A stretch of DNA of 57,411 nt from a virus (IMGVR_UViG_3300027844_000349:1-57411), one strand, 5' to 3'. Shown: positions 1,078 to 14,061, counted from the stretch's first letter. Program-made: numbers and translations. Notes: generated by a model from the letters alone, not told the origin.

Positions 1078-1085
1078 CTTAATCT

Positions 1086-1746: not shown

Positions 1747-1790
1747 ATATAATAGCGGGGGGTTCACAAGAGAACCCCCTGATATTATAT
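1747..1790. repeat. conserved-loop hairpin family, copy 1
   Basis: ATATAATAgcgGGGGG-TTCACAAGAGAA-CCCCCtgaTATTATAT. Confidence 0.85.
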
Positions 1791-1799
1791 AGGCGTAAG

Positions 1800-2123
1800 T
1801 CAAACCATCGTATCACTAAGAGCTTTATTCTTTCTATCAAAGATATTGTTTCTAATTTGTTTCTCTTCTGTAATATATCCTAGCCCATCACAACGATGGC
1901 AGGAACCGTAAGAACCATCTGCTATAATATACTTACCATTAATACACCTAGGACATTGACTATCATAGTCGAGGGGTTTAATAGTAATTCCTCCTTCAGT
2001 ATCTTTACTCCAATCATACTGTGTAAAGCGAACTCCATATAAAAGACCATCACTTCCGTATACTTCATCAATATCATAGTCTATCATCTGTAAGTTATTA
2101 GTTATCCATGCTGCTAGTTTCAT
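1800..2123 (-). CDS. zinc-ribbon protein (DnaJ-type CxxCxGxG repeats)
   Basis: CPRCING..CHRCDGLG. Confidence 0.65.
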   Translation of the reverse strand: MKLAAWITNNLQMIDYDIDEVYGSDGLLYGVRFTQYDWSKDTEGGITIKPLDYDSQCPRCINGKYIIADGSYGSCHRCDGLGYITEEKQIRNNIFDRKNKALSDTMV

Positions 2124-2377
2124 GTTGTTATCCTTTCTTTCTTAGCTGAGATTATATTGCTCCAAACTTCCCTCAGTATATTCATAGATATATGATGGCA
2201 GTTTATATGAGTATATAATATAGAAAATACTTCCTCCCTCTCAGAGTTATACTTATGTAGTACATAGAAATCTCTGTCAACTATCTCTTCTAAACATAGG
2301 TCACAATGCATTAGTAATCTTTCTCTTTCTATCTTTATTAGTCTTCTGGTTTTTTTGATGGTGAGTATTATGACCAC
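2120..2377 (-). CDS. small hypothetical protein (CxxC..HxxC); real start probably near 2311
   Basis: MHCDLC..THINC. Confidence 0.5.
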   Translation of the reverse strand: MVIILTIKKTRRLIKIERERLLMHCDLCLEEIVDRDFYVLHKYNSEREEVFSILYTHINCHHISMNILREVWSNIISAKKERITT

Positions 2378-2597
2378 CTAATCCTTTATCCCAACAGGAC
2401 ATACATGTACCATTAGCAAGTATCATTTCTTCAGAAGAATGTTTCCTATAGTATTTACTTTTTCTATTATACCATACGTTACATACTCCAAAGCTTTCTT
2501 CTGGTAATTGAATTGGTTCTATATATACACGTTTATCAAGAACCTTAGTGTATTCTCTCGTTTCCTGTACTATACCTATCCCCATAAAATTATTCAC
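2301..2597 (-). CDS. hypothetical Cys-containing protein
   Basis: ORF track; coupled to neighbours; CMSC. Confidence 0.55.
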   Translation of the reverse strand: MNNFMGIGIVQETREYTKVLDKRVYIEPIQLPEESFGVCNVWYNRKSKYYRKHSSEEMILANGTCMSCWDKGLGGHNTHHQKNQKTNKDRKRKITNAL

Positions 2598-2802
2598 TAC
2601 TCTCTCCCCATATGCTAGGTCTAGGAAAGCCTACTAGAACGCCTGCTTCTGTTCTTTGATCATTCTTTGATACTGTTACTTCATACATAATCTTATCATC
2701 TTTAGCTAAGACTAGGACTGGAAATCCTTGGACTATTTTGTAATCAACAATAGTATAGTCTAGGAACTGCCGATAGTAAACCTGTTTCTCTTCTGTAGTC
2801 AT
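2590..2802 (-). CDS. hypothetical protein
   Basis: ORF track; AAGGAGAG RBS. Confidence 0.65.
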   Translation of the reverse strand: MTTEEKQVYYRQFLDYTIVDYKIVQGFPVLVLAKDDKIMYEVTVSKNDQRTEAGVLVGFPRPSIWGESSE

Positions 2803-2840
2803 ACTCTCTCCTTCTCTTTATTACTATTTCTCCCCCCAGA

Positions 2841-2882
2841 AAAATAATATCTTTGGTCACAAAGAACCAAAGATATTATTTT
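2841..2882. repeat. conserved-loop hairpin family, copy 2
   Basis: AAAATAATATCTTTGGT-CACAAAGA-ACCAAAGATATTATTTT (17-bp perfect arms). Confidence 0.9.
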
Positions 2883-3063
2883 AACAATCTACAACATGTT
2901 CACTATTAGATAGGTCAAGGTTTAGTTTTAATTTATATTCTACTGGCATCTTCTTTAAAACTAGTCTACACTGTATACATAGTTGTCTAGTAAAGTATTT
3001 CCTAGCCTTAGGATGTACAGCGAAACTTGTCTTACATATAGCACAGAGTTTTCTATTCCACAT
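2881..3063 (-). CDS. small zinc-ribbon protein
   Basis: CAIC..CIQC. Confidence 0.6.
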   Translation of the reverse strand: MWNRKLCAICKTSFAVHPKARKYFTRQLCIQCRLVLKKMPVEYKLKLNLDLSNSEHVVDC

Positions 3064-3065
3064 AC

Positions 3066-3374
3066 TTATTTATTACCATAGACTGCTCTCGTTACCATCT
3101 GAGCTAAGTCTAATCCTTCATCAGTATAACCCAGTGTAGTTCCTCTCATTGGAATAGCATTCCTAATGAGTGGCCTAGCACCTAGTATAAATGAATCTTC
3201 TTCTACATTATAATGTAGTTCCAAAGCATGACAGAAGTCAGCAAAAGAATTTGTTAATTCATTAGGTAATTTCCTAGGTCTAGAATCATGTATGTCGCTA
3301 GGCTTAGAGGTAGATTCCAAGTCTATATATATGTCTGCTAATGCTTTATAAACGTGAGCAAATTTATGTTCCAT
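3066..3374 (-). CDS. hypothetical protein
   Basis: ORF track; AAGGAG RBS. Confidence 0.6.
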   Translation of the reverse strand: MEHKFAHVYKALADIYIDLESTSKPSDIHDSRPRKLPNELTNSFADFCHALELHYNVEEDSFILGARPLIRNAIPMRGTTLGYTDEGLDLAQMVTRAVYGNK

Positions 3375-3765
3375 TGAACTCCTTATACATATACTTCAGC
3401 TTCAGGTTAGTATAGATAAGATGTGCTTCTTGTTCCGAAGAACCATTACATAATGGACATGGGTATTCTGCCCCTTTCCAATCCTTTCCTACATACTCTT
3501 CATCATGTTCACCATCTAGATGTTCACATACAGGACAGTCTTCACCTTCATCAAACCCATGTCTGCAACAATAATCCTGTCCATACCCATCTCTTTCATC
3601 ATCGTAGTCACCTCTGTATACTCTTTCCTTTATACAGTCGTTACAGTCTCCTTCATTCTCACAGAAGCCATCTTCTATCGTGCAATTGATACCTGTCTTA
3701 TGACAGGACGGACAAGTATGACCGTTCTCATAATCGTGCATTAGTATACATATTGAGGGGGTCAT
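3364..3765 (-). CDS. acidic Cys-rich protein with several CxxC motifs
   Basis: CPSC, CNDC, CPVC, CPLC. Confidence 0.6.
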   Translation of the reverse strand: MTPSICILMHDYENGHTCPSCHKTGINCTIEDGFCENEGDCNDCIKERVYRGDYDDERDGYGQDYCCRHGFDEGEDCPVCEHLDGEHDEEYVGKDWKGAEYPCPLCNGSSEQEAHLIYTNLKLKYMYKEFNGT

Positions 3766-3940
3766 TCTTTGTTGTCATCCTAGAATACAACCTCATTCTC
3801 CTAACTAAGCTTAGTCCCTCATGTTCAGGCTGTCGTTCCACCATTCGTATTAGCATATCTTGTACTGTCCTAGGATTATCTTCTATCCAGTGCAGTATCT
3901 CATCTCTTTTATCTGGTTGCATCTTAATACTCACCTTCAT
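3728..3940 (-). CDS. hypothetical protein
   Basis: ORF track. Confidence 0.5.
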   Translation of the reverse strand: MKVSIKMQPDKRDEILHWIEDNPRTVQDMLIRMVERQPEHEGLSLVRRMRLYSRMTTKNDPLNMYTNARL

Positions 3941-4229
3941 CTTCTAGTACGAATATGCAATTGTCTAGGCATCGACCACAAAATCCTGATGGGCCACCGT
4001 ATTTTACGGTGGACATATCCAACTCGATTGCTGGATATGCACCACAGCACTCTGATACATACATGTCTTCTTCCATTTTATTCTCCAATAATCGTATGAC
4101 TTCTTCTAGCCTAGAATCAGGCATATCATTTTGATGTTCTCCACATCTAGTACATGTGGTTTGATACTTCGGATGTATATACTCCTTTCTACATTCACAG
4201 TCCCAGTAGTCCTCTATAGTTACAAGCAT
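3924..4229 (-). CDS. double zinc-ribbon protein
   Basis: YWDCEC..CTRC and SECC..CGRC; start moved to ATG 4229 because the track start lies inside the hairpin. Confidence 0.6.
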   Translation of the reverse strand: MLVTIEDYWDCECRKEYIHPKYQTTCTRCGEHQNDMPDSRLEEVIRLLENKMEEDMYVSECCGAYPAIELDMSTVKYGGPSGFCGRCLDNCIFVLEDEGEY

Positions 4230-4241
4230 AACCCCACACAA

Positions 4242-4285
4242 AAATATAATATCGTGGTTCACAAAGAAGCCACGATATTATATTT
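4242..4285. repeat. conserved-loop hairpin family, copy 3
   Basis: AAATATAATATCGTGG-TTCACAAAGAAG-CCACGATATTATATTT (16-bp perfect arms). Confidence 0.9.
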
Positions 4286-4356
4286 AGATTCTCAACATTC
4301 CTTTTCAGTAAGTTTTAATTATCCTCTATATCAACACCCCTTGTATGCATCCTCCC

Positions 4357-4578
4357 TTAGTCTAAGTAATCAGTATTAATAGAATCAGATAGCTTTCTAT
4401 CAAGGTCAGTAGTGATACTATTCTTTGTTAGGATTTCTTGTAGTGTAGGATTCCGTTGGTCTATCTGTTCCTGATACTTATTAATTTCTTTATCGTCAGC
4501 AGTTCCAAAAGGATTTAGTAACGGGTCATTGCTTCTTAGGTCTATTGCTTTTTCACTAGGCATTTGATTTCTCCTCAT
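4357..4578 (-). CDS. hypothetical protein
   Basis: ORF track. Confidence 0.5.
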   Translation of the reverse strand: MRRNQMPSEKAIDLRSNDPLLNPFGTADDKEINKYQEQIDQRNPTLQEILTKNSITTDLDRKLSDSINTDYLD

Positions 4579-4783
4579 CTATATTAAAAGATTCATAATA
4601 TTCTCGTTCTTCATCGCAACTTATACACCCATCTATTCCAGTAGAGTGATGTACTCTACAATAGATAACTCGTTCCCCATAAGTATCTTCATATTCTTCT
4701 TTAGTCATACTTAAATAGTCTTCCATAGCTATCGTATCCCCTGCCTTCCATCTTGTTTTTAATGCACCACCAACACCATCCAC
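4556..4783 (-). CDS. small hypothetical protein (CxxH..CxxC)
   Basis: ORF track; start uncertain. Confidence 0.5.
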   Translation of the reverse strand: MDGVGGALKTRWKAGDTIAMEDYLSMTKEEYEDTYGERVIYCRVHHSTGIDGCISCDEEREYYESFNIDEEKSNA

Positions 4784-4845
4784 TATGTATTCTTTGATTA
4801 GGTATTCCTACATTCTTTCTCCCACATATGATACAATCCATTATA

Positions 4846-5058
4846 TTATATTACCTCTACTGAACTAAGATATTGTTCAACAGCTTTAATTAATTTATCT
4901 TTGCGTCTTATCTTAAAGCCATAGCCTTGTAGTATTCTCTTTGGGCTTGGAGGATTCCCTTTACCATTACGGTAATAGCTATAATTAACTTCTTCCTTTA
5001 AGTACTGAAGACACTGTACTAGTGAAGTATAAGTAATTCTAGTAACAACATCATTCAT
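4846..5058 (-). CDS. hypothetical protein
   Basis: ORF track; overlaps upstream stop. Confidence 0.6.
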   Translation of the reverse strand: MNDVVTRITYTSLVQCLQYLKEEVNYSYYRNGKGNPPSPKRILQGYGFKIRRKDKLIKAVEQYLSSVEVI

Positions 5059-5236
5059 TAACTATCTCACCAGTGTTATTATACTGGTCAATCATTGTAC
5101 CCATCTTAATTATCTCATTCATACTAGTATGCTTAACAGATTCATCTGAACCATACAATAAGTTCTGAGTAAATATTCTAGCAGCAGCTTCCCACGTAGG
5201 AACTAGCCTAACGTATTTCTTTTCTTTGTCTGCCAT
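5051..5236 (-). CDS. hypothetical protein
   Basis: ORF track; TAATG coupling. Confidence 0.65.
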   Translation of the reverse strand: MADKEKKYVRLVPTWEAAARIFTQNLLYGSDESVKHTSMNEIIKMGTMIDQYNNTGEIVNE

Positions 5237-5466
5237 TATATAGTTTCCTTTTTAAACATCATCTTCCTTAAGGATTCAATAGCAAGATGTATATGTCCGT
5301 TGTAGATTGACGAAAAGGGAGCTGAATTTTCTAGTTGTTCTTTGATAGTAACTCTTAATTCCCCATTCAACTTTCGCTGTTCCTCTGAAGCAGCTCTTAA
5401 TAATCTATTTTCAATTACTAATCTATGTACCTGTTTGCTAAGTATATCTATATCATCGTTTAGCAT
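5236..5466 (-). CDS. hypothetical coiled-coil protein
   Basis: ORF track; GAGG RBS. Confidence 0.6.
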   Translation of the reverse strand: MLNDDIDILSKQVHRLVIENRLLRAASEEQRKLNGELRVTIKEQLENSAPFSSIYNGHIHLAIESLRKMMFKKETI

Positions 5467-5574
5467 TGTAACCTCTTGCGTATAGCCTCAAGGACAACCT
5501 CTAAGGCTTTCCTATTATTCTTGTATGCTTTTTGATACCACTTCTTATTTCTTTTTTGTTCCCTCCTCTCTCCC

Positions 5575-5910
5575 TTAGTTGCCATCAGTCTCTAGATTCC
5601 ACATCTTATCAAACTTTTCTGTTGTAAGCATTCTATCTCTACTTACTAGTGCTCCTAAAGCAGTAGCAGTTTGAAGAAGTGTCCTAAAATCTCTGAGTTC
5701 ATCGTCTCTAGACGTTGTAGACTTTATACTGTATCCTATATATAATAAATATAAAGCTGCATCTACACCTTCTGAAGATAATGTATTTGTAACATGCTTA
5801 AAGCTGTCTTCATTATTTGGTGTGTTTAGCAACTGAGAAAGTAATGCTTGTCCTGCATTATATCTATCTCGACTCATATCGGGAATCGGGGATTCATTAT
5901 CATCCATCAT
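5575..5910 (-). CDS. hypothetical protein
   Basis: ORF track; AAGGAG RBS. Confidence 0.65.
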   Translation of the reverse strand: MMDDNESPIPDMSRDRYNAGQALLSQLLNTPNNEDSFKHVTNTLSSEGVDAALYLLYIGYSIKSTTSRDDELRDFRTLLQTATALGALVSRDRMLTTEKFDKMWNLETDGN

Positions 5911-5922
5911 AACTAAGCTCCT

Positions 5923-5966
5923 TATAATTAGGGGAAGGTATTAAATACCTCCCCCCTATTATACCA
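5923..5966 (-). promoter_or_regulatory. extended -10 promoter (TGGTATAAT) overlapping an imperfect hairpin
   Basis: minus strand TGG-TATAATAGGGGGGAGGTAT-TTA-ATACCTTCCCCTAATTATA upstream of the RBS of 5910. Confidence 0.5.
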
Positions 5967-5976
5967 TAACTAGAAA

Positions 5977-6246
5977 TTATTTCTTAACGTAGGCGGTAAA
6001 GCCTAGGGTAAGAACCTTTCCACTAGGTAGGGTCATGATAGGGATGTTACCCCCTGTAGTAGCAACAACGTCAGTTTTACCTGATGATTTAGAAGGACGG
6101 GACTCAGCTACTTTGTTCCCATCAGTATCAAACAACCCAGTCCTTACTGAAATAGTCATCTGTCCATCAGGACTCACATCAACTACCACGTTGTCAAACT
6201 TTGCTGACCAGATATCAATTCCCTGACTATTAATAGGTTCCACCAT
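5977..6246 (-). CDS. hypothetical protein (SxSGKT..VATTGGN motif)
   Basis: ORF track; start moved to ATG 6246 after TAAGGAG. Confidence 0.7.
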   Translation of the reverse strand: MVEPINSQGIDIWSAKFDNVVVDVSPDGQMTISVRTGLFDTDGNKVAESRPSKSSGKTDVVATTGGNIPIMTLPSGKVLTLGFTAYVKK

Positions 6247-6293
6247 AATATAAAACTCCTTACTATATAGTATGTATACATTAAACCCAACCA

Positions 6294-6335
6294 TATATTT
6301 AGGGGGGGTTCACAACGAATCCCCCCCTAAATATA
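6294..6335. repeat. conserved-loop hairpin family, copy 4
   Basis: TATATTTAGGGGGGG-TTCACAACGAAT-CCCCCCCTAAATATA. Confidence 0.9.
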
Positions 6336-6372
6336 GAGCACGTAAACCAAGCCATTCTAAATTAGAACTACT

Positions 6373-6675
6373 CTATAGAAACCACAAAGGACTTTGGTTA
6401 CTAACGGTATTACTAAAGTTACTACTCGGTATACTCTTCAATTCACCAGGAAAATAGAAAGAACGTTTAGAAGCATAGGTAACTTCATCATCGCATACTA
6501 TCATCTGTGGGGAGAGAGTATTAAACCATCCAAATTCTATTTCAGTATTACATTCTACACAAGTTTCTAAACGAGAATACTTATGGTACTCTAGTTCAAA
6601 CTGCTTCCATAGACTTCCATTAGAATCTACACCAGAAATACTTTTTCTTCCATGAATATCCTTAAGGTTGTACAT
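6373..6675 (-). CDS. hypothetical protein with CxxC
   Basis: ORF track; GGAGG RBS. Confidence 0.55.
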   Translation of the reverse strand: MYNLKDIHGRKSISGVDSNGSLWKQFELEYHKYSRLETCVECNTEIEFGWFNTLSPQMIVCDDEVTYASKRSFYFPGELKSIPSSNFSNTVSNQSPLWFL

Positions 6676-6931
6676 CCCATTCCTCCGCTATTGGTTGAGT
6701 ACATGATGAGCATCCCTTTGCTGGTCTACTCACCACCATTTTATTTCCAGGCTTCTTATTTCGCTTAGGAATATAGACTGACTGCATAGATGCTACTCTG
6801 TCTGGTGGTAGTACCTCCCCACATTCAGGACAGCACATACATTCTATACAATAGTTTCCTTTGTTATGCCCATTGTTTATATACTCTACAACAAACTTAG
6901 TTTCTGCACATCCTGTACACATCCCTTCCAT
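6662..6931 (-). CDS. double zinc-ribbon protein
   Basis: CTGC, CIEC, CPEC, CSSC. Confidence 0.65.
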   Translation of the reverse strand: MEGMCTGCAETKFVVEYINNGHNKGNYCIECMCCPECGEVLPPDRVASMQSVYIPKRNKKPGNKMVVSRPAKGCSSCTQPIAEEWDVQP

Positions 6932-7152
6932 TAAGGTGTTACCTCCAGCAGTTCTTCTACCTGTTCTACCCAGTCAAACTGTTCATCCTCTAACTCAAAG
7001 TAATCTTCACTGGTTTCTATGACTACATCAGTACCCCTAAATTCCCCAGTCTCCCATTTATTAATTGCTTCTTTCTCTGTCTCAGCATCAACAACATACA
7101 TCCCTTGTTGATAGTAATATTTATTGGTATATATGTTCCACTTCATATGCAC
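6931..7152 (-). CDS. acidic hypothetical protein
   Basis: VDAETEKEAI motif of a kind common in phage early proteins. Confidence 0.6.
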   Translation of the reverse strand: MHMKWNIYTNKYYYQQGMYVVDAETEKEAINKWETGEFRGTDVVIETSEDYFELEDEQFDWVEQVEELLEVTP

Positions 7153-7934
7153 ACTGCTTCCTTATGAGAATTAACATTCGCTTTATTAACATTGACTACA
7201 CTTAAATCAAACCAAGGCATTGATTCAAGAGGTTCATATTTTTTATAACCTGTTTTAATTTTCCATTTTAAATCTTCTTCCTTAGGATAATTCTTAGTCC
7301 ACTTAACTGTGGAAGTAGCCATAAGTTTCTTAGCCTCATTACTAAGAGGATGTATATATCTAAACTGCTTACCCTTTATTCTTTTAATATTTTTATGTGC
7401 CATGAAGTCATCTGTTAACCAGAAGATTTTCTCTTTACCTGAGAAGATAGCATTCTCTTCTAGCAACTTCCTAGTAGACCTAGGATGTATCTTCTCTCCA
7501 TCTGGCCCAATGTATATATCAGTCCAGATGAACCCACCATACCAGAAATTGAATGCTTGATATACATACCCTGCCTTCCCTACAATCCCATCAGCCCAGG
7601 TATATAGAAACTTCTTTTCAGGACAGTTAAGTTTGAACCACTTAAAAACCTTGGATAGCATCTGAGTCTCTGAGTTTCTAGGATAGCTGTCGTCCATACA
7701 CATCTTACCAATTTCATAATAGTCTTTACTCCCCAACGATGGAAATAATTTATGGATAGTATTGTAAGGCTGGGTTCCCCAGCCTAGTGTTAATACTCCA
7801 GCTAATATATCCCCATCATAAATACCAAGGTAATGTTTAGTCAACCTAGGCATTACTTTAGAGTAATGCCTAGCTTGAATGAAGTCTACTGCTGTACGAG
7901 CATCAAGCTCTTGTATATAAAAATCATACTTCAT
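7143..7934 (-). CDS. mom: Mom-like (GNAT-fold) DNA adenine-modification protein
   Basis: HYSK, GVLTLG, YEIGKMC, PRNSETQMLS, LYTWADG..GYVYQAFNFWY match Mom-family motifs. Confidence 0.7.
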   Translation of the reverse strand: MKYDFYIQELDARTAVDFIQARHYSKVMPRLTKHYLGIYDGDILAGVLTLGWGTQPYNTIHKLFPSLGSKDYYEIGKMCMDDSYPRNSETQMLSKVFKWFKLNCPEKKFLYTWADGIVGKAGYVYQAFNFWYGGFIWTDIYIGPDGEKIHPRSTRKLLEENAIFSGKEKIFWLTDDFMAHKNIKRIKGKQFRYIHPLSNEAKKLMATSTVKWTKNYPKEEDLKWKIKTGYKKYEPLESMPWFDLSVVNVNKANVNSHKEAVCI

Positions 7935-8037
7935 TGTTATCTGGATGATTCTTACAATCATTACAGGTATTTTTAATGGTAACTGGAATCCCTGTTGTAT
8001 AGGACAACATCCGACAACGCCAACAAATATATTTCAT
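7924..8037 (-). CDS. 37-aa zinc finger with Com-like spacing (not in ORF track)
   Basis: MKYICWRCRMLSYTTGIPVTIKNTCNDCKNHPDNNEV; ATGA-coupled to the upstream gene and overlaps the mom start. Confidence 0.6.
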   Translation of the reverse strand: MKYICWRCRMLSYTTGIPVTIKNTCNDCKNHPDNNEV

Positions 8038-8291
8038 GGTATCTCCTCTATTCGTAGTTCATCCTTCTTGTCTACATCCCAATAGAATACTGTATCAGGG
8101 TCAGTACATTCTTTCTTATACTGTAGCATATCCTGAAAACCTTCTGGATTATTGTGGTAGTATTCTATCTTTGCCTCAATGTAGTATTCTTGTAGGGATG
8201 TATAATCCATACTAGTTAACTCCCATTCTGCTAAGTCTAGTATTGCTTCTTCTAGTCTTTCCTCATTATAGTCATCATCTATTCTATCCAC
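8034..8291 (-). CDS. acidic helical protein, paralog A
   Basis: similar to 8284..8577 and 9993..10178. Confidence 0.65.
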   Translation of the reverse strand: MDRIDDDYNEERLEEAILDLAEWELTSMDYTSLQEYYIEAKIEYYHNNPEGFQDMLQYKKECTDPDTVFYWDVDKKDELRIEEIP

Positions 8292-8577
8292 AAGGTTTTC
8301 TTACACTCCTATAAGCCATCCAAGCATCGTTAAACTCTACAGCATTACGCTTATCCTCGTAGTGTTTCTGCATATGGTATCTATAGAAATCTTCCAACTC
8401 CATGTCTGCTATCTTATCTAGTTGGTATTCTATCACATCATCAATCATCTTGTATATAGAATCGGCGTAAGGTATATCTCCCTCCCTATCCCACTGTTGG
8501 TTATGTTTCAACCTAACATACTCTAAAGAATTATCCTTACCTTCTTCAGGACTAATGTGTGAATATGCTACTCCCAT
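8284..8577 (-). CDS. acidic helical protein, paralog B
   Basis: ORF track; GAGGGGG RBS. Confidence 0.65.
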   Translation of the reverse strand: MGVAYSHISPEEGKDNSLEYVRLKHNQQWDREGDIPYADSIYKMIDDVIEYQLDKIADMELEDFYRYHMQKHYEDKRNAVEFNDAWMAYRSVRKPCG

Positions 8578-8683
8578 TATAACCCCCTCTATTTAGTAAG
8601 CTACTTACAGCAACCACGATAGCCATACTCCTGTAGCAATTAATCCATTAGTTGTTATCATCCATACCTGTATTATAACTGTC

Positions 8684-8866
8684 TTACTCATTATTTATTG
8701 TCTCCCTATGTAATTTATCTGCACAAGGGGCACAAAGCATTACTACTGTACCCCCAAGATTCTGCCATGAGAAATATGTTTTATGCATATCATCTTTAGC
8801 TGCAACCCCACATGGACATATGTATATACTTTCTTCTTTATACTGTACGTTCTTCTTTCTTGCCAC
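8684..8866 (-). CDS. small zinc-ribbon protein
   Basis: CPCG..CAPC. Confidence 0.55.
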   Translation of the reverse strand: MARKKNVQYKEESIYICPCGVAAKDDMHKTYFSWQNLGGTVVMLCAPCADKLHRETINNE

Positions 8867-9388
8867 TTACGTAGTCTCTCCTAAGTATCCTGCAAACTGC
8901 ATACCTGGCTCATCATAGAACCATGAGATATGTACATCAGGATGTTGTAGCTTGAGGGTTTCATAGATACTTTCTGGTGGCCCCCAAGCAGTATCAAATG
9001 TATAGACTATATAATCTGCTTCGTAATCTTCCAGTCTAACTTCACAAGCATCCCACTTGCAAGTCCAGTTATCACTACACCAATCATACCAATTATTATG
9101 ACCGTACTTTTCTATGAGTTCGTGACTTCTTTGTTTAGTAATAGGTAAGTTACCCAATGCAAACTCTGACTCAGAACGATCTTTCTTATACTTTTCTATA
9201 TCTTCTTCAGCATCTACTATAGTAACAGGAGAACCTATCCCATGCAACTCATCAGGGAATGGGATAATAGCATCAAAGCTAAACAGATTATTAAAATTAC
9301 TACTGTATCCTTTAACTGCCTCTTTAAATGCTTTCACATCTGCTGCATCACCAGATATTGTTACTCGATTGCTACACCAATTAGGCAT
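8867..9388 (-). CDS. DUF1281/YubB ferredoxin-like-fold protein
   Basis: MPNWCSNRVTISG, WYDWCSDNWTCKWD, FDTAWGPP, YDEPGMQFAG. Confidence 0.75.
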   Translation of the reverse strand: MPNWCSNRVTISGDAADVKAFKEAVKGYSSNFNNLFSFDAIIPFPDELHGIGSPVTIVDAEEDIEKYKKDRSESEFALGNLPITKQRSHELIEKYGHNNWYDWCSDNWTCKWDACEVRLEDYEADYIVYTFDTAWGPPESIYETLKLQHPDVHISWFYDEPGMQFAGYLGETT

Positions 9389-9584
9389 CGTCATCTGCTC
9401 CGCTAAAAATTTGGTCTTGACACGACTGACAGTATCCACTAATCATGTATTCTTTTCTACTGACTTCATCAATAAAAATGAACGCTTCATCTCCACACTT
9501 AACACAATGCTGCATCTCAATAGATACTCTCATCGACCTACCGTATAAACTTAAAGCTATCTTCTCTGCAAAATCCTCAACCAT
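9381..9584 (-). CDS. small zinc-ribbon protein
   Basis: CVKC..KEYMISGYCQSCQD. Confidence 0.65.
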   Translation of the reverse strand: MVEDFAEKIALSLYGRSMRVSIEMQHCVKCGDEAFIFIDEVSRKEYMISGYCQSCQDQIFSGADDDA

Positions 9585-9820
9585 TATTCTTTATCCTCTT
9601 CTATACTTCTATAGGTATCCAATGCTTGTTGAGCTGCCTCTAACTGAGTTCTAAGGGAACTGTTAACTGAGTGAAGAATACGTACTGACTCAGCTAAAGA
9701 TAAATAATCCTCAAACAATACTAACGAGACATCCTTCGGTTCCATATCTGGTATCTCATTTATCATTAGTGACATTAAATTTGTTGCTCCTTCTCTTCTA
9801 GTACTTGAAATACTCTCCAC
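9584..9820 (-). CDS. hypothetical protein
   Basis: ORF track; start uncertain. Confidence 0.5.
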   Translation of the reverse strand: MESISSTRREGATNLMSLMINEIPDMEPKDVSLVLFEDYLSLAESVRILHSVNSSLRTQLEAAQQALDTYRSIEEDKE

Positions 9821-9993
9821 ATAGAAGGGAAACTTTCCTGAAGGATTGATAACATATCTGCCATGTCACTATCCTGTCTCTCAGTTATAGAAGTTACTTT
9901 GCCTAATTCTTTATGAGCTATGTATAAAGCTTTAGCAATAATAAACTTCCCCCTCAGTGTATTACTCAATAGTTCTTGTGTGTGTACTGGCAT
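9775..9993 (-). CDS. hypothetical protein
   Basis: ORF track; TAATG coupling. Confidence 0.6.
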   Translation of the reverse strand: MPVHTQELLSNTLRGKFIIAKALYIAHKELGKVTSITERQDSDMADMLSILQESFPSMWRVFQVLEEKEQQI

Positions 9994-10178
9994 TAGTCAT
10001 CACCCTTTATTTCTTTCATTTCAGTGTAGTTATTTTCAAAGTCTTCCAAACCTTCTTCACTAGAATAATATTCTTCTAGTTGTTGTTTAGCATATGTTTC
10101 TAATTCAGGTATATCCATATGCTCAACAATCCATTCTGTTAGTTCTTCTATCTGCTCTTCTTTATTACCAGAGGTCAT
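9993..10178 (-). CDS. acidic helical protein, paralog C
   Basis: AGGAG RBS; similar to 8034..8291. Confidence 0.65.
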   Translation of the reverse strand: MTSGNKEEQIEELTEWIVEHMDIPELETYAKQQLEEYYSSEEGLEDFENNYTEMKEIKGDD

Positions 10179-10332
10179 AACCTTCTCCTAACTTATTTCT
10201 ACAAACCTGACAGAACTTACCGTTCTTCTCTAGCAATTTCTTACCACAACTGTAGCAACCATAAAAGGGAATTGTGTTTCTCCACGGTCTGTAACTATCC
10301 TTATCTTTTTTATGTGTAGCATTCTTAGCCAA
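10165..10332 (-). CDS. 55-aa zinc-ribbon protein (TTG start, not in ORF track)
   Basis: AGGAGAGG RBS; ..GCYSCGKKLLEKNGKFCQVC..; fills the gap between neighbouring genes. Confidence 0.55.
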   Translation of the reverse strand: MAKNATHKKDKDSYRPWRNTIPFYGCYSCGKKLLEKNGKFCQVCRNKLGEGYDLW

Positions 10333-10768
10333 GTCTTGTACCTCTCCTTACTGTACGTCTAGTATAACTACGCTTCTGTTCTCCAATAGGATATGGCCCC
10401 CCAAGAAATGGTAGTAAATTTCTAACGTGGCTTATAAGTATATCATACTTCCCATCTATTTGTGCGAAGGCCCAACCACCACTATCTATAAAGTACATAT
10501 CATATTCAATGAGGACATCTGTATTTAAATGGAAATTCTTATGCTTGGATACTAAGGATAAGATACGTTTCTCAACTCCCTTAGTTCTACTAGACTCACT
10601 GTTATATTTAAGTATAGGAATGTCTCTTGTTCGTACTGTTTCACTTAAGTCAAGTATAGAAACACCGACATTATCATCAGCCCTGATATTACTAAGAGAA
10701 ATCTCTCGTACTGAGATAGCATTGTTTACCTCCTTTGGTTTATTTTTAGAACCTTTTCTTCTGCCCAT
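10325..10768 (-). CDS. hypothetical protein with AT-hook-like basic N-terminus
   Basis: MGRRKGSKNKPK; GGAGG RBS. Confidence 0.6.
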   Translation of the reverse strand: MGRRKGSKNKPKEVNNAISVREISLSNIRADDNVGVSILDLSETVRTRDIPILKYNSESSRTKGVEKRILSLVSKHKNFHLNTDVLIEYDMYFIDSGGWAFAQIDGKYDILISHVRNLLPFLGGPYPIGEQKRSYTRRTVRRGTRLG

Positions 10769-10769
10769 G

Positions 10770-11003
10770 TTATTCTGCCTCCACTATCTGTGCAAAGATA
10801 GTAACATATCCATACTGTTGTTCAAACCAAGCATACATGCTGAACAAGAATGGAAATATTCTTACCCTATTATTTAAAGTATCTGTAAGATAGAGCGTTA
10901 AGTTAGTTCTAGTTAGATGGAACCTACCTCGTTCAGTAGTCTTAGTCTCTCTAGAAAACCAGCTAGGTATATCATCAATTGGTATGAAGATTATCATCTC
11001 CAA
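10770..11003 (-). CDS. hypothetical protein
   Basis: ORF track. Confidence 0.5.
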   Translation of the reverse strand: MEMIIFIPIDDIPSWFSRETKTTERGRFHLTRTNLTLYLTDTLNNRVRIFPFLFSMYAWFEQQYGYVTIFAQIVEAE

Positions 11004-11254
11004 TCTTGATTCTCTATCCTATTAATATATCTATTTAACCATAGACCTAACCCAATCCTAAACCTAGCTTCCTCCTTAAGAGTTGGGAACTCATTCTTAT
11101 TAGTGAAAGCTAGGGCTAGGTTAAAGCCATTAATAAAATCTATTGGGTCATCAAGCATGATATCACGGGAGAAGATACGAGGGTCTAGAAACTCCTCCAA
11201 TGCTTCTGGACTAACAAAGTTTTTAAAGTAATCCAAATCATAATTATCCATCAT
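10994..11254 (-). CDS. hypothetical protein
   Basis: ORF track; AAGGAG RBS. Confidence 0.6.
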   Translation of the reverse strand: MMDNYDLDYFKNFVSPEALEEFLDPRIFSRDIMLDDPIDFINGFNLALAFTNKNEFPTLKEEARFRIGLGLWLNRYINRIENQDWR

Positions 11255-11273
11255 ATACTTCTCCTTAATATCT

Positions 11274-12317
11274 TTAGTTACATAGAGACAAGGCAGTTTT
11301 AAATGCCCTACTCTTAGCTTCAGCTCTCATGCCAAAGATAGAAGTAGCAGAATTAGCACGGCCTTTACGGAAATCCTCTGTCTCTACTACAGCTTGCCAT
11401 GCTCCCCAAGGAGTATTAGCTAGCTTGCTATTCTTATCATTAAAGAATTGATACCTATCCCATGCTCCAGTACGAATAGCATCTAAACGATTAAGCCGCC
11501 TTTCATACTCATCTTGATGATGGGTCTTGTCATTTAGAATAGACAACCAAACTTCTTTACTCACATCATCAGGAGTAATGTCCTGAGATAGAGTAAGTCT
11601 ACGAGGTTTAGATGCTTCAGGATATGCAGAATTAATAATAGTCATGGCTTCTGTATTATCAATCCTATACTCTGCTAGTCTATTCATGACAGGGATAACC
11701 TTTTCTTTAGCCTGGAGCATGTTATTAAATAGGTAGACATACCACTCAGCATCTTGCTGAATGTTACGGTTATGCTTTAGGTTTACAGATACCTTAGCAG
11801 AAGCTAATCCAGTAGTCAAGGTGTTCTGACACACTACCCGTACTGGAGTGAAGGCAATAGATAAAGCACCCATGCCATCACGATGGTCTGTAACTAGGTA
11901 ATACATATGATGGTCTTCACCAGCGATGGCTCCCTCACCTGCATCTAGTGTCATGAATATCTTTTCACCATGACCTAGGGCACCCATAGTTTCTACGGGA
12001 TATGTCTCAGAGATAGGGTCTAGCATCTTAGCTAAGTCCCAAGCCTGGATAGGAGTCCATTCTTTACCTACCATTGATAGAACCCTATCTTGAGGGTCAT
12101 CATCAGTAGGTTCACGAACTACACCATAATGTCCAGACTCCATGAACTGCCCATTCTCAAGCTGAATAAAAGCAGGGAGTTTCCTAACAGGGAAACCAAT
12201 CTTAGATATCTTCATCGCTTCAGTAGCTGTCATATCAGCATCCATAACTGTACCGACTCGATGCCATGCTGGAGTCCGACGACCAAAGAACCTGTCACCA
12301 AATATGTTAGCTGCCAT
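11274..12317 (-). CDS. DUF932 family phage/plasmid-like protein (TIGR03299-like)
   Basis: PAWHRVG, ETMGALGHGEKIF, HRDG..TPVRVVCQNTL, TPWGAWQAVVE. Confidence 0.8.
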   Translation of the reverse strand: MAANIFGDRFFGRRTPAWHRVGTVMDADMTATEAMKISKIGFPVRKLPAFIQLENGQFMESGHYGVVREPTDDDPQDRVLSMVGKEWTPIQAWDLAKMLDPISETYPVETMGALGHGEKIFMTLDAGEGAIAGEDHHMYYLVTDHRDGMGALSIAFTPVRVVCQNTLTTGLASAKVSVNLKHNRNIQQDAEWYVYLFNNMLQAKEKVIPVMNRLAEYRIDNTEAMTIINSAYPEASKPRRLTLSQDITPDDVSKEVWLSILNDKTHHQDEYERRLNRLDAIRTGAWDRYQFFNDKNSKLANTPWGAWQAVVETEDFRKGRANSATSIFGMRAEAKSRAFKTALSLCN

Positions 12318-12333
12318 AATTTATTCTGTCTCC

Positions 12334-12564
12334 TTATCTTCGTGTGTTAGCATTTTCTTGAGCAAGGATTCTTCTGCGTTCTTCAGAAGACATGCGGGAA
12401 GGCTTTACTTTACTAGGGTCTAACTGTTTAATAGAATTAAACTCTAGGTTGTGGTCAGAAGGTCTTTGCATTAGACCTCCCTTACTGGGTATCTGAACAC
12501 AACCTGATTCATTAGCTCTATTCATCGTGGGCTTACCACTAAGTATATACTTTTTACGGCTCAT
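12334..12564 (-). CDS. hypothetical basic protein
   Basis: ORF track. Confidence 0.55.
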   Translation of the reverse strand: MSRKKYILSGKPTMNRANESGCVQIPSKGGLMQRPSDHNLEFNSIKQLDPSKVKPSRMSSEERRRILAQENANTRR

Positions 12565-13190
12565 TAAGTTCGTACTCCTACTTGTCTACTTATACCCTTG
12601 TCCATTCTCCACTGCAACCATGTCTGCGCTTGAAGTACATTGGGATGGACACCCCTCAACTTAGCTGCTTTGACATAGGCTCCTGATATTCTCTTATAAA
12701 TGACAGGAGATTGCAATTGATTCAACTCTCGTTCTGCAAGTGACCGACCCATATACACTGCGGAAGCATGTCGGTCTACTACAGGATGGTTATCCCCAGT
12801 AGGGTCAACTATGGCTTTATAGAAAGGAACAACCTTACGTCCTTTCAATACTTCTAATGGATGTTCTCCATCTAGGATACGGAGAGCTTTCATATTGTTA
12901 ATAGTAGTCTGTCCTGTAGCATGACCTGTACCTATTAACATGTGTGCCATATGAATGTTGTCTCCCCACTCAGTTTGTGGAGATAGAGCTGCTAGTATAC
13001 CAGCCCCTACTTGTACTCGTCCAGCATCACCTTTATATCCAGCCAACTTACCTAAGCTAATAGCAACCTCATGTGCTTCAGGATACCACCGTTCTCCAAT
13101 TACTTCACACTCATCACTGAGTTCTAGATTAAGAATATTTCGGAAGCTGCCCTTGACATCATTAGTTCGCTCTTTCTTATAGTTACGCAC
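12564..13190 (-). CDS. DUF7178-like protein (HhH DNA-glycosylase-like motifs)
   Basis: WYPEAH, AALSPQTEW..N, GRKVVPFY, VVDRHA, LQAQTW; start moved to GTG after AAGGAG. Confidence 0.6.
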   Translation of the reverse strand: MRNYKKERTNDVKGSFRNILNLELSDECEVIGERWYPEAHEVAISLGKLAGYKGDAGRVQVGAGILAALSPQTEWGDNIHMAHMLIGTGHATGQTTINNMKALRILDGEHPLEVLKGRKVVPFYKAIVDPTGDNHPVVDRHASAVYMGRSLAERELNQLQSPVIYKRISGAYVKAAKLRGVHPNVLQAQTWLQWRMDKGISRQVGVRT

Positions 13191-13244
13191 TGTTCTTTTC
13201 TCCTTCAAGAAAAATATAATATATACCCCATACACACCAAGTAA

Positions 13245-13284
13245 AAATAGTGGGGGGGTTCACAAAGTAACCCCCCCACTATTT
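13245..13284. repeat. conserved-loop hairpin family, copy 5
   Basis: AAATAGTGGGGGGGTT-CACAAAGT-AACCCCCCCACTATTT. Confidence 0.9.
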
Positions 13285-13309
13285 AGGTAAAGCCAAGTCA
13301 AGCCCGTAG

Positions 13310-13525
13310 TTATACTAAACGTATATCAACATTAGCTATACAAGTAGTATTGTAACCATCCCCTAAAAATATTGTCCCGTATGATTCTCTATACTCCACA
13401 CGACAACGTAAGCAGAAGCACGTCTTGTTCTCTGTAATCCACTTCAATTGAGCTATAGCACTTTGAGCACTGACAGCATCAACTGTTGCTACGGCATCAT
13501 TATATTTAATGTCACTGTATATCAT
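13310..13525 (-). CDS. small Cys-containing hypothetical protein
   Basis: CFCLRC; GGAGG RBS. Confidence 0.55.
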   Translation of the reverse strand: MIYSDIKYNDAVATVDAVSAQSAIAQLKWITENKTCFCLRCRVEYRESYGTIFLGDGYNTTCIANVDIRLV

Positions 13526-13526
13526 C

Positions 13527-13727
13527 TTAGTCTACCTCCTCATATGTATCAATAGTTTCTTGGTGTTCTTTGTAGCTATCCTCACAACCCACACAGACTA
13601 GTTCTTTATTATAATCTACAGTCATAGTAGTAAAATAAGAATAGTCTTCATCTATATAAGCACACAGATAGCATTGATATGTTGAGTATACTTCTTTAGA
13701 ACTCACTTTCATAATCTCCAACGGCAC
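13527..13727 (-). CDS. small zinc-ribbon protein
   Basis: CYLC..CVGC. Confidence 0.6.
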   Translation of the reverse strand: MPLEIMKVSSKEVYSTYQCYLCAYIDEDYSYFTTMTVDYNKELVCVGCEDSYKEHQETIDTYEEVD

Positions 13728-13929
13728 TCTCCAACTCTACGATAACTTCATCCAGTTCCTCAAGTTGACTGTAAAGCTCATCGGCCTTACCCAGGTTCTC
13801 CTCTAGAACAGTATCTAACTCTTCTAGACGCTGAGTCTTTTCTGCAATACTATCCTTAGTAGACTGTGCATCTCCCCTTGCTATTTCTATTGCACCCATC
13901 AACTCTTGGATTACGGAAGCTGTAGTCAT
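13696..13929 (-). CDS. acidic coiled-coil protein
   Basis: heptad pattern; AGGAG RBS. Confidence 0.7.
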   Translation of the reverse strand: MTTASVIQELMGAIEIARGDAQSTKDSIAEKTQRLEELDTVLEENLGKADELYSQLEELDEVIVELESAVGDYESEF

Positions 13930-13964
13930 TATTGTTTTCTCCTGTATTATTTATTTATTCTAAT

Positions 13965-13973
13965 ATTGTACCA
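13965..13973 (-). promoter_or_regulatory. extended -10 promoter TGGTACAAT
   Basis: between hairpin copy 6 and the RBS of 13929. Confidence 0.5.
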
Positions 13974-13987
13974 CAAACCCACCAACC

Positions 13988-14029
13988 ATATATTTAGGGG
14001 GGTTCACAAAGTAACCCCCCTAAATATAT
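13988..14029. repeat. conserved-loop hairpin family, copy 6
   Basis: ATATATTTAGGGGGGTT-CACAAAGT-AACCCCCCTAAATATAT (17-bp perfect arms). Confidence 0.9.
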
Positions 14030-14061
14030 ATACCAGCCAAGCCAACCAACATACTTAATTA

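What the first reader, a model, noticed from the sequence alone, without database searches (positions are those of the whole stretch)
1747..14029. Six oriented intergenic hairpins with variable stems and a conserved bulged top punctuate the early region
Seen: copies at 1747, 2841, 4242, 6294, 13245 and 13988, all 40-44 nt, all intergenic, all in one orientation, and none found beyond 14.1 kb. The arms differ (GGGGGG/CCCCCC, TCTTTGG/CCAAAGA, TCGTGG/CCACGA) yet stay complementary, perfectly so in five of six. The centre is conserved: GG-TTCACAA-(A/C)G(A/T)A-N-CC, with copies 1 and 2 as variants. In the mRNA sense five copies fold as a C-G-closed NUUGU pentaloop with one unpaired base on the 5' side just below it; copy 1 puts the extra base in the loop. 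Each has an AT-rich stem base, follows a stop codon and precedes the next gene start. Inference: structure plus loop is under selection, so this is a single-stranded signal read by a protein, not a dsDNA operator. Candidates are an RNA processing/stabilising or antitermination site, an extruded hairpin promoter (compare N4), or an attC-like recombination site with an extrahelical base that would make the early region a cassette array. I recognise no described element with this consensus.
Basis: partly seen in the sequence, partly recalled or inferred. Interest (0 to 1): 0.85.

Follow-up and report, generated by a model that had tools for sequence, protein, structure and literature searches.

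The report
Conserved-loop hairpin cassettes between phage genes
Six long hairpins with the same loop but different stems sit between blocks of small accessory genes in an uncultured marine phage; they are most likely transcript-punctuating regulatory cassettes of a design already known from T4-type phages, with an unusually conserved loop whose reader is unknown.

Summary
A covariance model finds no other copy in the window.

With five further distinct copies from related marine contigs, 15 of 19 stem pairs show changes on both sides. The loop and 3' shoulder motif TTGTGA is unchanged in 11 of 11 distinct copies.

Each hairpin is the core of a cassette of about 80-135 nt: stop codon, G/T-rich box, hairpin, second G/T-rich box, a -10-like element in some copies, then the ribosome site.

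At one gene junction, relatives have no cassette (4 contigs), a different hairpin cassette (3 contigs), or c6 plus a gene block.

My best reading is a set of RNA-level attenuator or 3'-end-stabiliser hairpins, some joined to a host-type promoter. They work like the PeSL cassettes of T4-type phages, but I do not file them as members. This scan has noted PeSL-like arrays in other phages, though none with this sequence.

The N4-type hairpin promoter and attC-like readings are not supported. What reads the conserved loop is open. I rate it a new variant of a known kind, of moderate interest.

The parts
13988..14029 (-). hairpin c6: 17-bp perfect stem, G6/C6 core on an AT-rich base, loop region TTACTTTGTGAA
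   Evidence: 60.5 bits. An identical hairpin is in L212.
13930..14063 (-). c6 cassette: stop codon, G/T-rich box, hairpin, G/T-rich box, extended -10-like TGGTACAAT (13965-13973), ribosome site
   Evidence: Synteny with L044, L127, L051, L214 ends at 14063, with L216 at 14059, L220 at 14062 and L126 at 14090. The junction is empty or holds another hairpin in relatives.
13245..13284 (-). hairpin c5: 16-bp perfect stem, G7/C7 core
   Evidence: 58.1 bits. Orthologues in L209 and L213/L044 are identical. L210 and L211/L212 have changed lower stems with the same loop region.
13200..13345 (-). c5 cassette, upstream of the DUF7178 gene; promoter-like TTTACT-16-TATATT at 13245-13218
   Evidence: Homology with L044 resumes at 13345.
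6294..6335 (-). hairpin c4: 15-bp perfect stem plus a 3-bp top, with a bulged A
   Evidence: 63 bits. The orthologue L214:10203-10249 has a different lower stem and the loop TTTCTGTGA.
6247..6372 (-). c4 cassette (126-nt gap)
4242..4285 (-). hairpin c3: 16-bp perfect stem (core TCGTGG/CCACGA) plus a 3-bp top, with a bulged C
   Evidence: 64.2 bits. I read L214:12108-12153 as the orthologue, from its position and similar lower stem. It has compensated stem changes and the loop TTTTGTGA.
2841..2882 (-). hairpin c2: 17-bp perfect stem (core TCTTTGG/CCAAAGA), loop variant TTGTGAC
   Evidence: 55.5 bits
2803..2880 (-). c2 cassette (78-nt gap)
1747..1790 (-). hairpin c1: 19-nt arms, 89% complementary, 6-nt loop
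   Evidence: 56.8 bits
1665..1799 (-). c1 cassette (135-nt gap)

Best explanation
The six hairpins are related copies of one intergenic regulatory cassette of about 80-135 nt. I think they act on the transcript. The window is an uncultured marine tailed phage with every gene on the minus strand.

The hairpins split its accessory small-gene region into six or seven blocks. That region includes Mom, DUF932, DUF7178 and many small ORFs of unknown function.

Each hairpin has a G/C core on an A/U-rich base, the shape of a bacterial intrinsic terminator with paired A and U tracts. I infer that it partly stops host RNA polymerase and/or caps the 3' end of the upstream message against exonucleases.

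In c5, c6 and their orthologues a host-type -10 (TGTGgTAcAAT-like) follows 15-25 nt later and restarts transcription. In other copies the ribosome site follows with no convincing promoter. Those hairpins therefore cannot be full terminators.

The cassettes are gained, lost and exchanged as units between stop codon and ribosome site in related phages. They behave as mobile regulatory modules, like the PeSLs of T4-type phages.

**Shown:** existence, orientation, covariation, loop conservation, and cassette-level gain and loss.

**Inferred:** termination or attenuation, RNA stabilisation, and promoter activity.
For: **Phage context**
- All large ORFs are on the minus strand, and the gene content is that of a tailed phage.

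**Hairpin structure and family**
- The hairpins are stable and intergenic.
- The family is strand-specific: 55-64 bits on the minus strand against 22-34 on the plus strand.
- Covariation: 15 of 19 pairs change on both sides, the covariation score is 0.578 against 0.149 in shuffles (0 of 500 reach it), and slid controls give 0.099-0.169.

**Terminators and promoters elsewhere in the phage**
- Ordinary hairpin-plus-T-run terminators, each followed by TATAAT, lie at 17821-17910 and 16973-17092.
- TGGTATAAT with up to 1 mismatch has 49 hits against 28.4 expected, and 39 of the 49 are on the minus strand.
- c6 has TGGTACAAT. The c5 orthologue in L213/L044 has TATAAT. c5 itself scores 9 of 12 in the sigma-70 scan.

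**Cassette gain and loss**
- At the junction before the DUF932 gene there is no cassette in L127, L051, L214 and L216.
- One different hairpin cassette sits there in L126, and another in L220 and L217.
- The window and L212 have c6 plus a gene block there.
- Synteny with relatives ends at the upstream edge of the c6 cassette.

**Published parallel**
- PeSLs combine a promoter with a stem-loop that often holds polyG then polyC. They sit before ORFans in plastic regions and mediate shuffling (PMC2839356, sections 13 and 16 read).

**Weak hint from RNA libraries**
- Of the 30 listed piece ends within 1-14100, 6 lie within 40 nt of a family hairpin, although those zones make up about 5% of the sequence (my count).
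Against: **Against simple termination**
- No hairpin passes the simple terminator rule on the minus strand. Region-wide the scan found 8 sites against 7.6 expected.
- The 3' tails have only 4-6 U in the first 9 nt after the G/C core (my reading).

**Against a promoter in every cassette**
- Sigma-70-like sites are not enriched (49 against 59.9 expected).
- c1-c4, L214-c3 and L214-c4 have weak -10 candidates or none.

**Left unexplained by plain termination**
- It does not explain why TTGTGA is unchanged in 11 of 11 copies while the stems turn over.
- It does not explain why the main stem has no G.U pair but 3 A.C/C.A mismatches. On the other strand those would be G.T.

**Against a general role in this phage group**
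- The complete 85-kb relative G001 has no such hairpins, so the element is not needed by the group.

**Against hairpin-driven shuffling**
- Most rearrangement breakpoints (window 12335, 11274, 10768) lie at plain gene boundaries.

**Limits of the RNA data**
- The data are assembled contigs from RNA libraries, no DNA run was laid beside them, and strain variation in the stems could also break contigs.
Confidence: 0.55

Rival explanations
1. The hairpin is a binding site for a specific factor. A phage or host protein would recognise the invariant loop and 3' shoulder, UUGUGA(A)C, on the folded RNA. It would switch the hairpin between stop and read-through, or control processing or translation of the next gene. 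This is the logic of lambda N with boxB, or Mu Com with its hairpin, but with many copies. It can coexist with the best explanation.
For: - TTGTGA is in 11 of 11 distinct copies, while 15 of 19 stem pairs change on both sides.
- c5 orthologues whose flanking genes are 90-100% identical have lower stems and flanks only 68-78% identical, with the same loop region.
- The c3 and c4 orthologues in L214 keep TGTGA although the flanking genes are about 68-73% identical.
- All copies share one orientation.
- A Com-like zinc-finger ORF shows that the phage encodes at least one candidate hairpin-binding protein. Com binds a loop motif closed by a C-G pair (PMC6483171, passages).
Against: - No candidate binder is tied to the hairpins.
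- Mu Com's motif CC(N)2-3GAG does not match, and no family hairpin lies at com/mom.
- Hairpins at the corresponding position in other relatives have other loops: L127/L214/L221, L126/L215 and L218/L220. The motif is therefore dispensable or lineage-specific.
- Five ordinary terminators in unrelated bacteria carry the same loop. They were picked by the pattern itself.
Confidence: 0.25
2. The hairpins are RNase III-type processing signals. Host RNase III would cut the stems of about 17-19 bp and divide a long transcript into block-sized messages with protective 3' hairpins, as in the T7 early region.
For: - Stem lengths of 15-19 bp plus a 2-3 bp top are near the constrained lengths (about 20 bp or less) of cellular RNase III substrates. 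Bulges or loops at the target give single-strand cuts (PMC3867540, passages).
- Several copies sit directly before a ribosome site with no promoter.
- An adapter-tagged fragment end lies at 1747, the base of c1. RNA-library contigs start or stop next to c3, c4, c5 and c6.
- The T7 parallel is recalled, not read.
Against: - The host is unknown.
- The stems are shorter than the idealised 22 bp.
- No internal loop is conserved, and the conserved part is the terminal loop, which RNase III is not known to read.
- Contig ends cannot show RNA ends, and reverse-transcriptase stops at a stable hairpin would look the same.
Confidence: 0.1
3. The signal acts on DNA. The hairpin would extrude on the template (+) strand as single-stranded DNA or a cruciform. 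It would then serve as a hairpin promoter of the N4 type, a priming signal, or a recombination site of the attC type.
For: - The stems are perfect Watson-Crick palindromes. There is no G.U among 183 paired cells. The three internal A.C/C.A mismatches would be G.T on the + strand.
- Both arms carry matching insertions and deletions in the c5 orthologues.
- Cassettes come and go at a fixed junction.
Against: - No tyrosine recombinase is in the window or in complete G001, with the control ringing in 14 of 14 genomes.
- No T7-like RNA polymerase was found (control silent).
- Stems are about three times longer than N4 promoter hairpins, and attC sites are conserved at the ends rather than the centre (both recalled).
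- Watson-Crick-only change can also come from template switching at replication without any DNA-level function (PMC8794818, listing and start of abstract).
- The mismatch asymmetry rests on only 2-3 independent events.
Confidence: 0.07

Closest known systems
PeSL (promoter-early stem-loop) cassettes of T4-type phages RB49/phi1, PST and nt-1 (PMC2839356, sections 13 and 16 read; PMC4122927, abstract read)
   Same: - A repeated unit of roughly 100 nt between genes in the plastic, ORFan-rich region.
- A stem-loop that often has polyG then polyC.
- The stop codon of the gene before and the ribosome site of the gene after lie inside the unit.
- Close relatives differ by gain, loss and replacement at the units.
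   Different: - The phage group is unrelated to T4.
- There is no consensus -35/-10 pair. At most there is an extended -10, and only in some copies.
- The hairpin is far longer (40-44 nt).
- The loop is conserved and the stems vary, which is not described for PeSLs.
- There are six copies per 14 kb rather than about 50 per genome.
- Most shuffling breakpoints here are not at the hairpins.
Bacterial intrinsic (Rho-independent) terminators with paired A and U tracts
   Same: - A G/C-rich core on an A/U-rich base, placed after stop codons.
- The same G-run, UUC, U-rich loop, GAA, C-run top occurs in ordinary terminators of five unrelated bacteria found by the pattern scan.
   Different: - The U tract is interrupted: 4-6 U in the first 9 nt.
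- The loop is conserved among copies.
- Some copies have no promoter after them, so full termination would silence the next genes.
RNase III processing signals of the phage T7 early region (recalled; substrate rules from PMC3867540, passages)
   Same: Oriented hairpins of nearly two helical turns that punctuate a one-directional block of small genes.
   Different: - No conserved internal loop.
- The stems are shorter than the 22-bp ideal.
- The conserved part is the terminal loop.
- Cleavage is untested and the host is unknown.
Lambda-type nut/boxB hairpins and the Mu Com target hairpin (boxB recalled; Com from PMC6483171, passages)
   Same: An RNA hairpin whose loop sequence, not its stem sequence, is the conserved recognition feature.
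   Different: - boxB and the Com target are short stems, present once or twice per genome.
- The loop motifs differ (Com: CC(N)2-3GAG).
- No partner protein is identified here.

Membership tests
PeSL cassette (T4-type phages) | Repeated intergenic unit of roughly 100 nt, concentrated in the plastic ORFan region, just upstream of small genes | tested here: met
   Six copies lie in 78-232-nt gaps within 1.7-14.1 kb, and none elsewhere in the window. The flanks align.
PeSL cassette (T4-type phages) | Strong sigma-70-like promoter (-35 and -10 near consensus) inside the unit | tested here: not met
   Only c5 is listed by the sigma-70 scan (9 of 12), and the region is not enriched (49 against 59.9 expected). 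c6 and the c5 orthologues have an extended -10 only. c1-c4 candidates are weak. The upstream TTGACT-like box has no -10 at usable spacing (my reading).
PeSL cassette (T4-type phages) | Stable stem-loop, often polyG then polyC, acting as terminator or attenuator | tested here: inconclusive
   The stem-loop, with G6-7/C6-7 in 4 of 6 copies, is shown. Terminator activity is not testable here.
PeSL cassette (T4-type phages) | Gain, loss and replacement of genes between close relatives at the units | tested here: inconclusive
   Cassette-level gain and loss occurs at one junction, and synteny breaks at the c6 edge. Other breakpoints (12335, 11274, 10768) have no hairpin.
Intrinsic terminator | G/C-rich hairpin followed at once by a U tract | tested here: inconclusive
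   The G/C core is present. The 3' side has 4-6 U in 9 nt and pairs with an A-rich 5' side. None is listed on the minus strand by the simple scan.
RNase III processing signal | Double-helical stem of about 20-22 bp with proximal and distal box features; cleavage by RNase III | not testable with these tools
   Stem lengths of 15-19 bp plus the top are compatible with PMC3867540. No cleavage data exist and the host is unknown.
N4-type single-stranded hairpin promoter | Short hairpin (5-7 bp stem, 3-nt loop; recalled) read by a virion RNA polymerase | tested here: not met
   Stems are 15-19 bp and loops 5-8 nt. No PF00940 match in the window or in G001 (the control rang nowhere, so this is weak). 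The largest protein (1914 aa) ends in a tail-fibre chaperone domain.
Integron attC site | Imperfect palindrome conserved at its ends, with extrahelical bases (recalled), plus a tyrosine recombinase | tested here: not met
   Conservation is at the centre and the stems are perfect. There is no PF00589 match in the window or in complete G001, with the control ringing in 14 of 14 genomes.
Any Rfam family | Covariance-model match | tested here: not met
   No match at gathering score over the window. The E-value search of 1-14300 gave only hits far below gathering score (E 0.35-3.7).

The most novel reading that the evidence does not exclude
The invariant loop and 3' shoulder, UUGUGA(A)C, is the address of a dedicated factor that reads many copies along one transcript, or reads the template-strand hairpins. 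That factor would decide, block by block, whether the accessory genes of this marine phage lineage are expressed. This would be a multi-copy system working like boxB, with stems free to drift or pushed to diversify. The conserved G/T-rich direct-repeat flanks would be part of the same signal.
Probability: 0.2. Interest if true: 0.7.

Novelty: new variant of a known kind. Interest (0 to 1): 0.4.

Why it matters
Promoter and hairpin cassettes that carry small accessory genes around are known from T4-type phages, and this scan has noted them in several other phage groups.

This case extends the design to an abundant, uncultured marine phage lineage. Its capsid-protein scan matched 462 stretches in IMG/VR, and its DNA is held by runs from many marine studies.

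It also adds an unusual feature: the loop is fixed while the stems turn over by changes on both arms, even between strains whose neighbouring genes are nearly identical.

If a factor reads that loop, it would be a new handle on how such phages schedule their anti-defence and accessory genes. If not, it is a clean natural example of hairpin upkeep by template switching.

Tried and rejected
**Searches for relatives**
- Megablast of 1-14500 against phage records gave no match.
- The large terminase, DNA polymerase and capsid protein have only remote matches among named phages.
- The pattern scan of IMG/VR returned 38 loci. By the model, only L038 (the same contig as L044) scores like a family member at 58.1 bits. 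The rest score 28.1 bits or less.
- Protein scans with the ORFs at 1086-1664 and 173-1027 found no relative. I therefore could not examine orthologues of c1 and c2.
- Relatives found through Mom (80 loci, 1.08 Mb) gave one weak hit.
- Relatives found through the capsid protein (81 loci, 0.67 Mb) gave hits in two loci.
- Among five longer records, one had a weak match at E 0.127 and the other four, including complete G001, had none.

**Pattern scan of GTDB genomes**
- It gave 42 single hits across unrelated taxa, which I judge about chance level.
- Five are ordinary terminators.
- A hit in a Thalassarchaeaceae MAG had no model support.

**Promoter ideas**
- I tested the upstream TTGACT-like box as a -35. 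The distance to any -10 is 2-11 nt, or about 65-70 nt across the hairpin, and it varies between copies (my reading). Rejected.
- The sigma-70 and terminator scans are not enriched.

**Other links tested**
- A trans partner for the loop: the complement of TTGTGAAC does not occur in mRNA sense anywhere in the window. All 6 matches are on the minus strand, five in hairpins and one at 35421.
- A link to the Com-like ORF: the motifs do not match and there is no family hairpin at com/mom.
- PF00940 search: nothing was found, but the control rang nowhere, so it does not show absence.

**RNA-library contigs**
- Ends near the hairpins are only a hint.
- Contigs cannot show RNA ends or strand, and no DNA run was laid for comparison.
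- A contig of X8 bridges c3.
- Parts without cover mean nothing.

**Not seen**
- Supplementary files of the PeSL papers were not opened. Their supplementary figures hold the promoter and terminator assays.

Full report
**What the window is**

The window is a whole IMG/VR virus record of 57,411 bases. It is linear and CheckV estimates it at 74% complete. All 26 ORFs of 200 aa or more are on the minus strand.

Along the direction of transcription, from high to low coordinates, the genes run as follows:
- tail and fibre genes
- DnaB-like helicase
- family A DNA polymerase
- large terminase
- ribonucleotide reductase
- portal
- exonuclease
- major capsid protein
- prohead protease
- about 16 kb of small ORFs, among them Mom (7143-7961), DUF932 (11274-12317) and DUF7178 (12564-13235)

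Named phages are only remote relatives. The lineage is common in marine data. The capsid-protein scan matched 462 stretches in IMG/VR, and 20 listed runs from 19 studies hold part of 4101-14100.

Strong AAGGAG-type ribosome sites, hairpin-plus-T-run terminators and TATAAT boxes point to a bacterial host, which remains unknown. A complete 85-kb relative, G001, has direct terminal repeats and a capsid protein 73% identical. It shows that the small-gene region can run on for about 35 kb. The array in the window may therefore be cut off at position 1.

**Checking the observation**

- Arms are 15-19 nt, perfectly complementary in five copies and 89% in copy 1.
- Folding energies are -19.3 to -28.5 kcal/mol, and none of 200 shuffles per copy does as well.
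- The central motif occurs 5 times within 2 mismatches, all on one strand, against 0.84 expected.
- Model R1, built from the six copies in mRNA sense and run without filters, finds only these six at 55.5-64.2 bits. The same places score 22.4-33.9 bits on the other strand.
- The next hit is a hairpin inside an ORF with a different loop, at 26.5 bits.
- All six lie in gaps between minus-strand ORFs, after a stop codon and before a ribosome site.

Two details of the description are softer.
- The 'bulge plus pentaloop' top is the predicted fold only for copies 3 and 4.
- The stems vary less than implied. Four of six have a G6-7/C6-7 core, c4 and c6 share their lower stem, and c2 and c3 largely share theirs.

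**The element is longer than the hairpin**

I anchored 16 copies from the window and relatives on the loop. The shared architecture, in order, is:
1. a cluster of stop codons
2. a G/T-rich box with a TTGAC-like core 8-12 nt before the stem
3. the hairpin
4. a second G/T-rich box (GGGTTTG-like)
5. an A/T-rich stretch that holds a -10-like element in some copies
6. the ribosome site

The two boxes are imperfect direct repeats of each other. An earlier first-reader note on this window had flagged these flanks.

**Relatives**

Only close relatives carry the family.
- Capsid relatives (81 loci, 0.67 Mb): only L044 and L050/L127 have a hit.
- Mom relatives (80 loci, 1.08 Mb): one weak hit.
- Five longer records: one weak match at E 0.127, and none in the other four, including G001. 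G001 has almost no long hairpins at all.

A metagenome scan with a DUF7178 alignment gave 16 loci, and these are informative.
- The c5 orthologues in L209 and L213/L044 are identical to c5.
- L210 and L211/L212 have flanking genes 90-100% identical to the window, but lower stems and immediate flanks only 68-78% identical. Both arms changed together, including matching insertions and deletions, while the G-run and the loop region stayed the same.
- In L214 the flanking genes are about 68-73% identical. The c4 orthologue, and what I read as the c3 orthologue from its position and similar lower stem, keep TGTGA in the loop with different, compensated stems.
- L224 carries another stem with the same loop.
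- Hairpins in front of a small 'MEYTE' gene upstream of DUF7178 in L127/L214/L221, L126/L215 and L218/L220 have other loops.

So the loop motif is conserved within a sub-lineage, not everywhere.

**Covariation**

On the 11 distinct sequences aligned to the model, one search gives:
- 90.3% of cells paired, against 65.9% in shuffles
- 15 of 19 pairs with a change on both sides
- covariation score 0.578 against 0.149, with 0 of 500 shuffles reaching any of the five measures
- slid controls at 0.099-0.169

The alignment was fitted to the model, which favours the structure. The stems are also plain to the eye.

TTGTGA is present in all 11. Every change in the main stem goes from one Watson-Crick pair to another. 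There is no G.U pair there, and the internal mismatches include three of A.C/C.A type, which would be G.T on the + strand.

That is too few events to call a strand. It does fit change at the DNA level by template switching between the arms, a published route to making and maintaining hairpins (PMC8794818; I saw the listing and the start of the abstract only).

**Does gene shuffling break at the hairpins?**

Partly.
- Synteny ends at window 14063, the upstream edge of the c6 cassette, in L044, L127, L051 and L214. It ends at 14059 in L216, 14062 in L220 and 14090 in L126.
- Homology with L044 resumes at 13345, about 60 nt before c5.
- The clearest result is the junction between the last conserved gene and the DUF932 gene.
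  - Four contigs (L127, L051, L214, L216) have only about 20 nt from stop codon to ribosome site.
  - L126 has one different G/C hairpin cassette there.
  - L220 and L217 have another.
  - The window and L212 have c6 followed by a block of genes.
- Cassettes of about 100 nt are thus gained or lost precisely between stop codon and ribosome site.
- Many other rearrangement joints (window 12335, 11274, 10768) are plain gene boundaries with no hairpin. This is not an integron-like array.
- No tyrosine recombinase is found in the window or in G001, while the control rang in 14 of 14 genomes.

**Promoters and terminators**

The phage has an over-represented motif biased to the minus strand. TGGTATAAT with up to 1 mismatch gives 49 hits against 28.4 expected, 39 of them on the minus strand. 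It often appears as TGTGgTATAAT, directly after ordinary hairpin-plus-T-run terminators in the late region.
- c6 is followed by TGGTACAAT.
- The c5 orthologue in L213/L044 is followed by TATAAT.
- c5 is listed by the sigma-70 scan at 9 of 12.
- The candidates after c1-c4 are degenerate. In L214 the ribosome site follows the c3-type hairpin within a few bases.

The hairpin, not the promoter, is therefore the constant part. At least some copies cannot be complete terminators, or the genes after them would be silent.

The 3' sides are only moderately U-rich, and the simple scan lists none of the six on the minus strand.

**RNA data**

Four marine metatranscriptome runs hold the region, but only as assembled contigs.
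- Among the 15 listed pieces inside 1-14100, 6 of 30 ends lie within 40 nt of a family hairpin: 13292 and 13294, 13952 and 13967, 6288, and 4233. Those zones make up about 5% of the sequence.
- Two runs from different studies each give a contig that spans just the c6-to-c5 unit.
- One contig has sequencing adapter directly after 1747, the base of c1.
- Another contig bridges c3.
- Contigs cannot show RNA ends or strand, DNA may be present in such libraries, no DNA run was laid, and the stems differ between strains, which also breaks assemblies.

I count this as a weak hint only.

**Other readings tested**

- Rfam has no match.
- A T7-like RNA polymerase was not found, but that control was silent.
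- The hairpins are far longer than N4 promoter hairpins (recalled).
- The loop has no complementary partner in mRNA sense elsewhere in the window.
Mu Com recognises CC(N)2-3GAG in a hexaloop (PMC6483171, passages), which is not this motif. No family hairpin lies near com/mom.
- A pattern scan of 185,579 species genomes gave 42 scattered single hits. Five are ordinary terminators in unrelated bacteria with the same G-run, UUC, U-rich loop, GAA, C-run top. These were selected by the pattern. They show only that this top is an ordinary terminator design.

**Conclusion**

The best-supported reading (about 0.55) is a lineage-specific family of mobile intergenic regulatory cassettes whose constant core is an RNA hairpin. 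The hairpin would attenuate transcription and/or protect upstream messages, with a host-type promoter attached in some copies.

They work like PeSLs (PMC2839356, sections 13 and 16 read; PMC4122927, abstract read). They fail the PeSL promoter criterion and belong to an unrelated phage, so I do not file them as members.

The conserved loop with fast-changing stems is the part that plain termination does not explain. A dedicated reader of the loop (about 0.2-0.25, and compatible with the above), RNase III processing (about 0.1) and a DNA-level role (about 0.07) remain open.

The scan has described PeSL-like arrays in several other phages, but none shares sequence with this one.

Noticed in passing
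window 7924-8037 (minus) and 7143-7934: A 37-aa ORF with two CxxC pairs overlaps the first 11 nt of the Mom-family gene, like com-mom of phage Mu. Mu Com's RNA motif CC(N)2-3GAG was not looked for systematically here.
   Followed up: partly
window, whole; e.g. 57303-57311, 16420-16428, 5958-5966, 17841-17849, 17006-17014: TGGTATAAT with up to 1 mismatch has 49 hits against 28.4 expected, 39 on the gene strand. It is often TGTGnTATAAT and often lies directly after a hairpin plus T-run. It is probably the host-type promoter of this phage, of the extended -10 kind.
   Followed up: partly
window 758-802: A hairpin of the same build (AT-rich base, G/C core, 16 pairs) but with another loop lies inside the 284-aa ORF 173-1027. 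It scores 26.5 bits with the family model.
   Followed up: no
window 5911-5976, 1028-1085, 127-160: Three further intergenic hairpins are not of the family. The one at 5911-5976 follows a perfect TGGTATAAT and would sit at the 5' end of the message.
   Followed up: no
L126:5060-5120; L220:2540-2600; L217:690-750: At the junction where the window has c6, relatives carry two other G/C-rich hairpin cassettes, each followed by a similar G/T-rich box. Four other contigs have an empty junction.
   Followed up: partly
window 13971-13987 and 14033-14047 (minus strand): The two boxes flanking c6 each hold four GG tracts, so a two-layer G-quadruplex is possible on the mRNA-sense strand. The other copies have fewer tracts.
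   Followed up: no
window 20820-22184: The nearest named relatives of the capsid protein are tailed viruses of Haloarcula and one assigned to Methanofastidiosa (27-31% identity over 35-39% of the protein). The expression signals of the window nevertheless look bacterial.
   Followed up: no
window 7839-7880; L044:12144-12180; L122:14327-14364: A 17-pair hairpin inside the 5' part of the Mom coding sequence is kept in relatives. It may simply reflect a conserved peptide.
   Followed up: no
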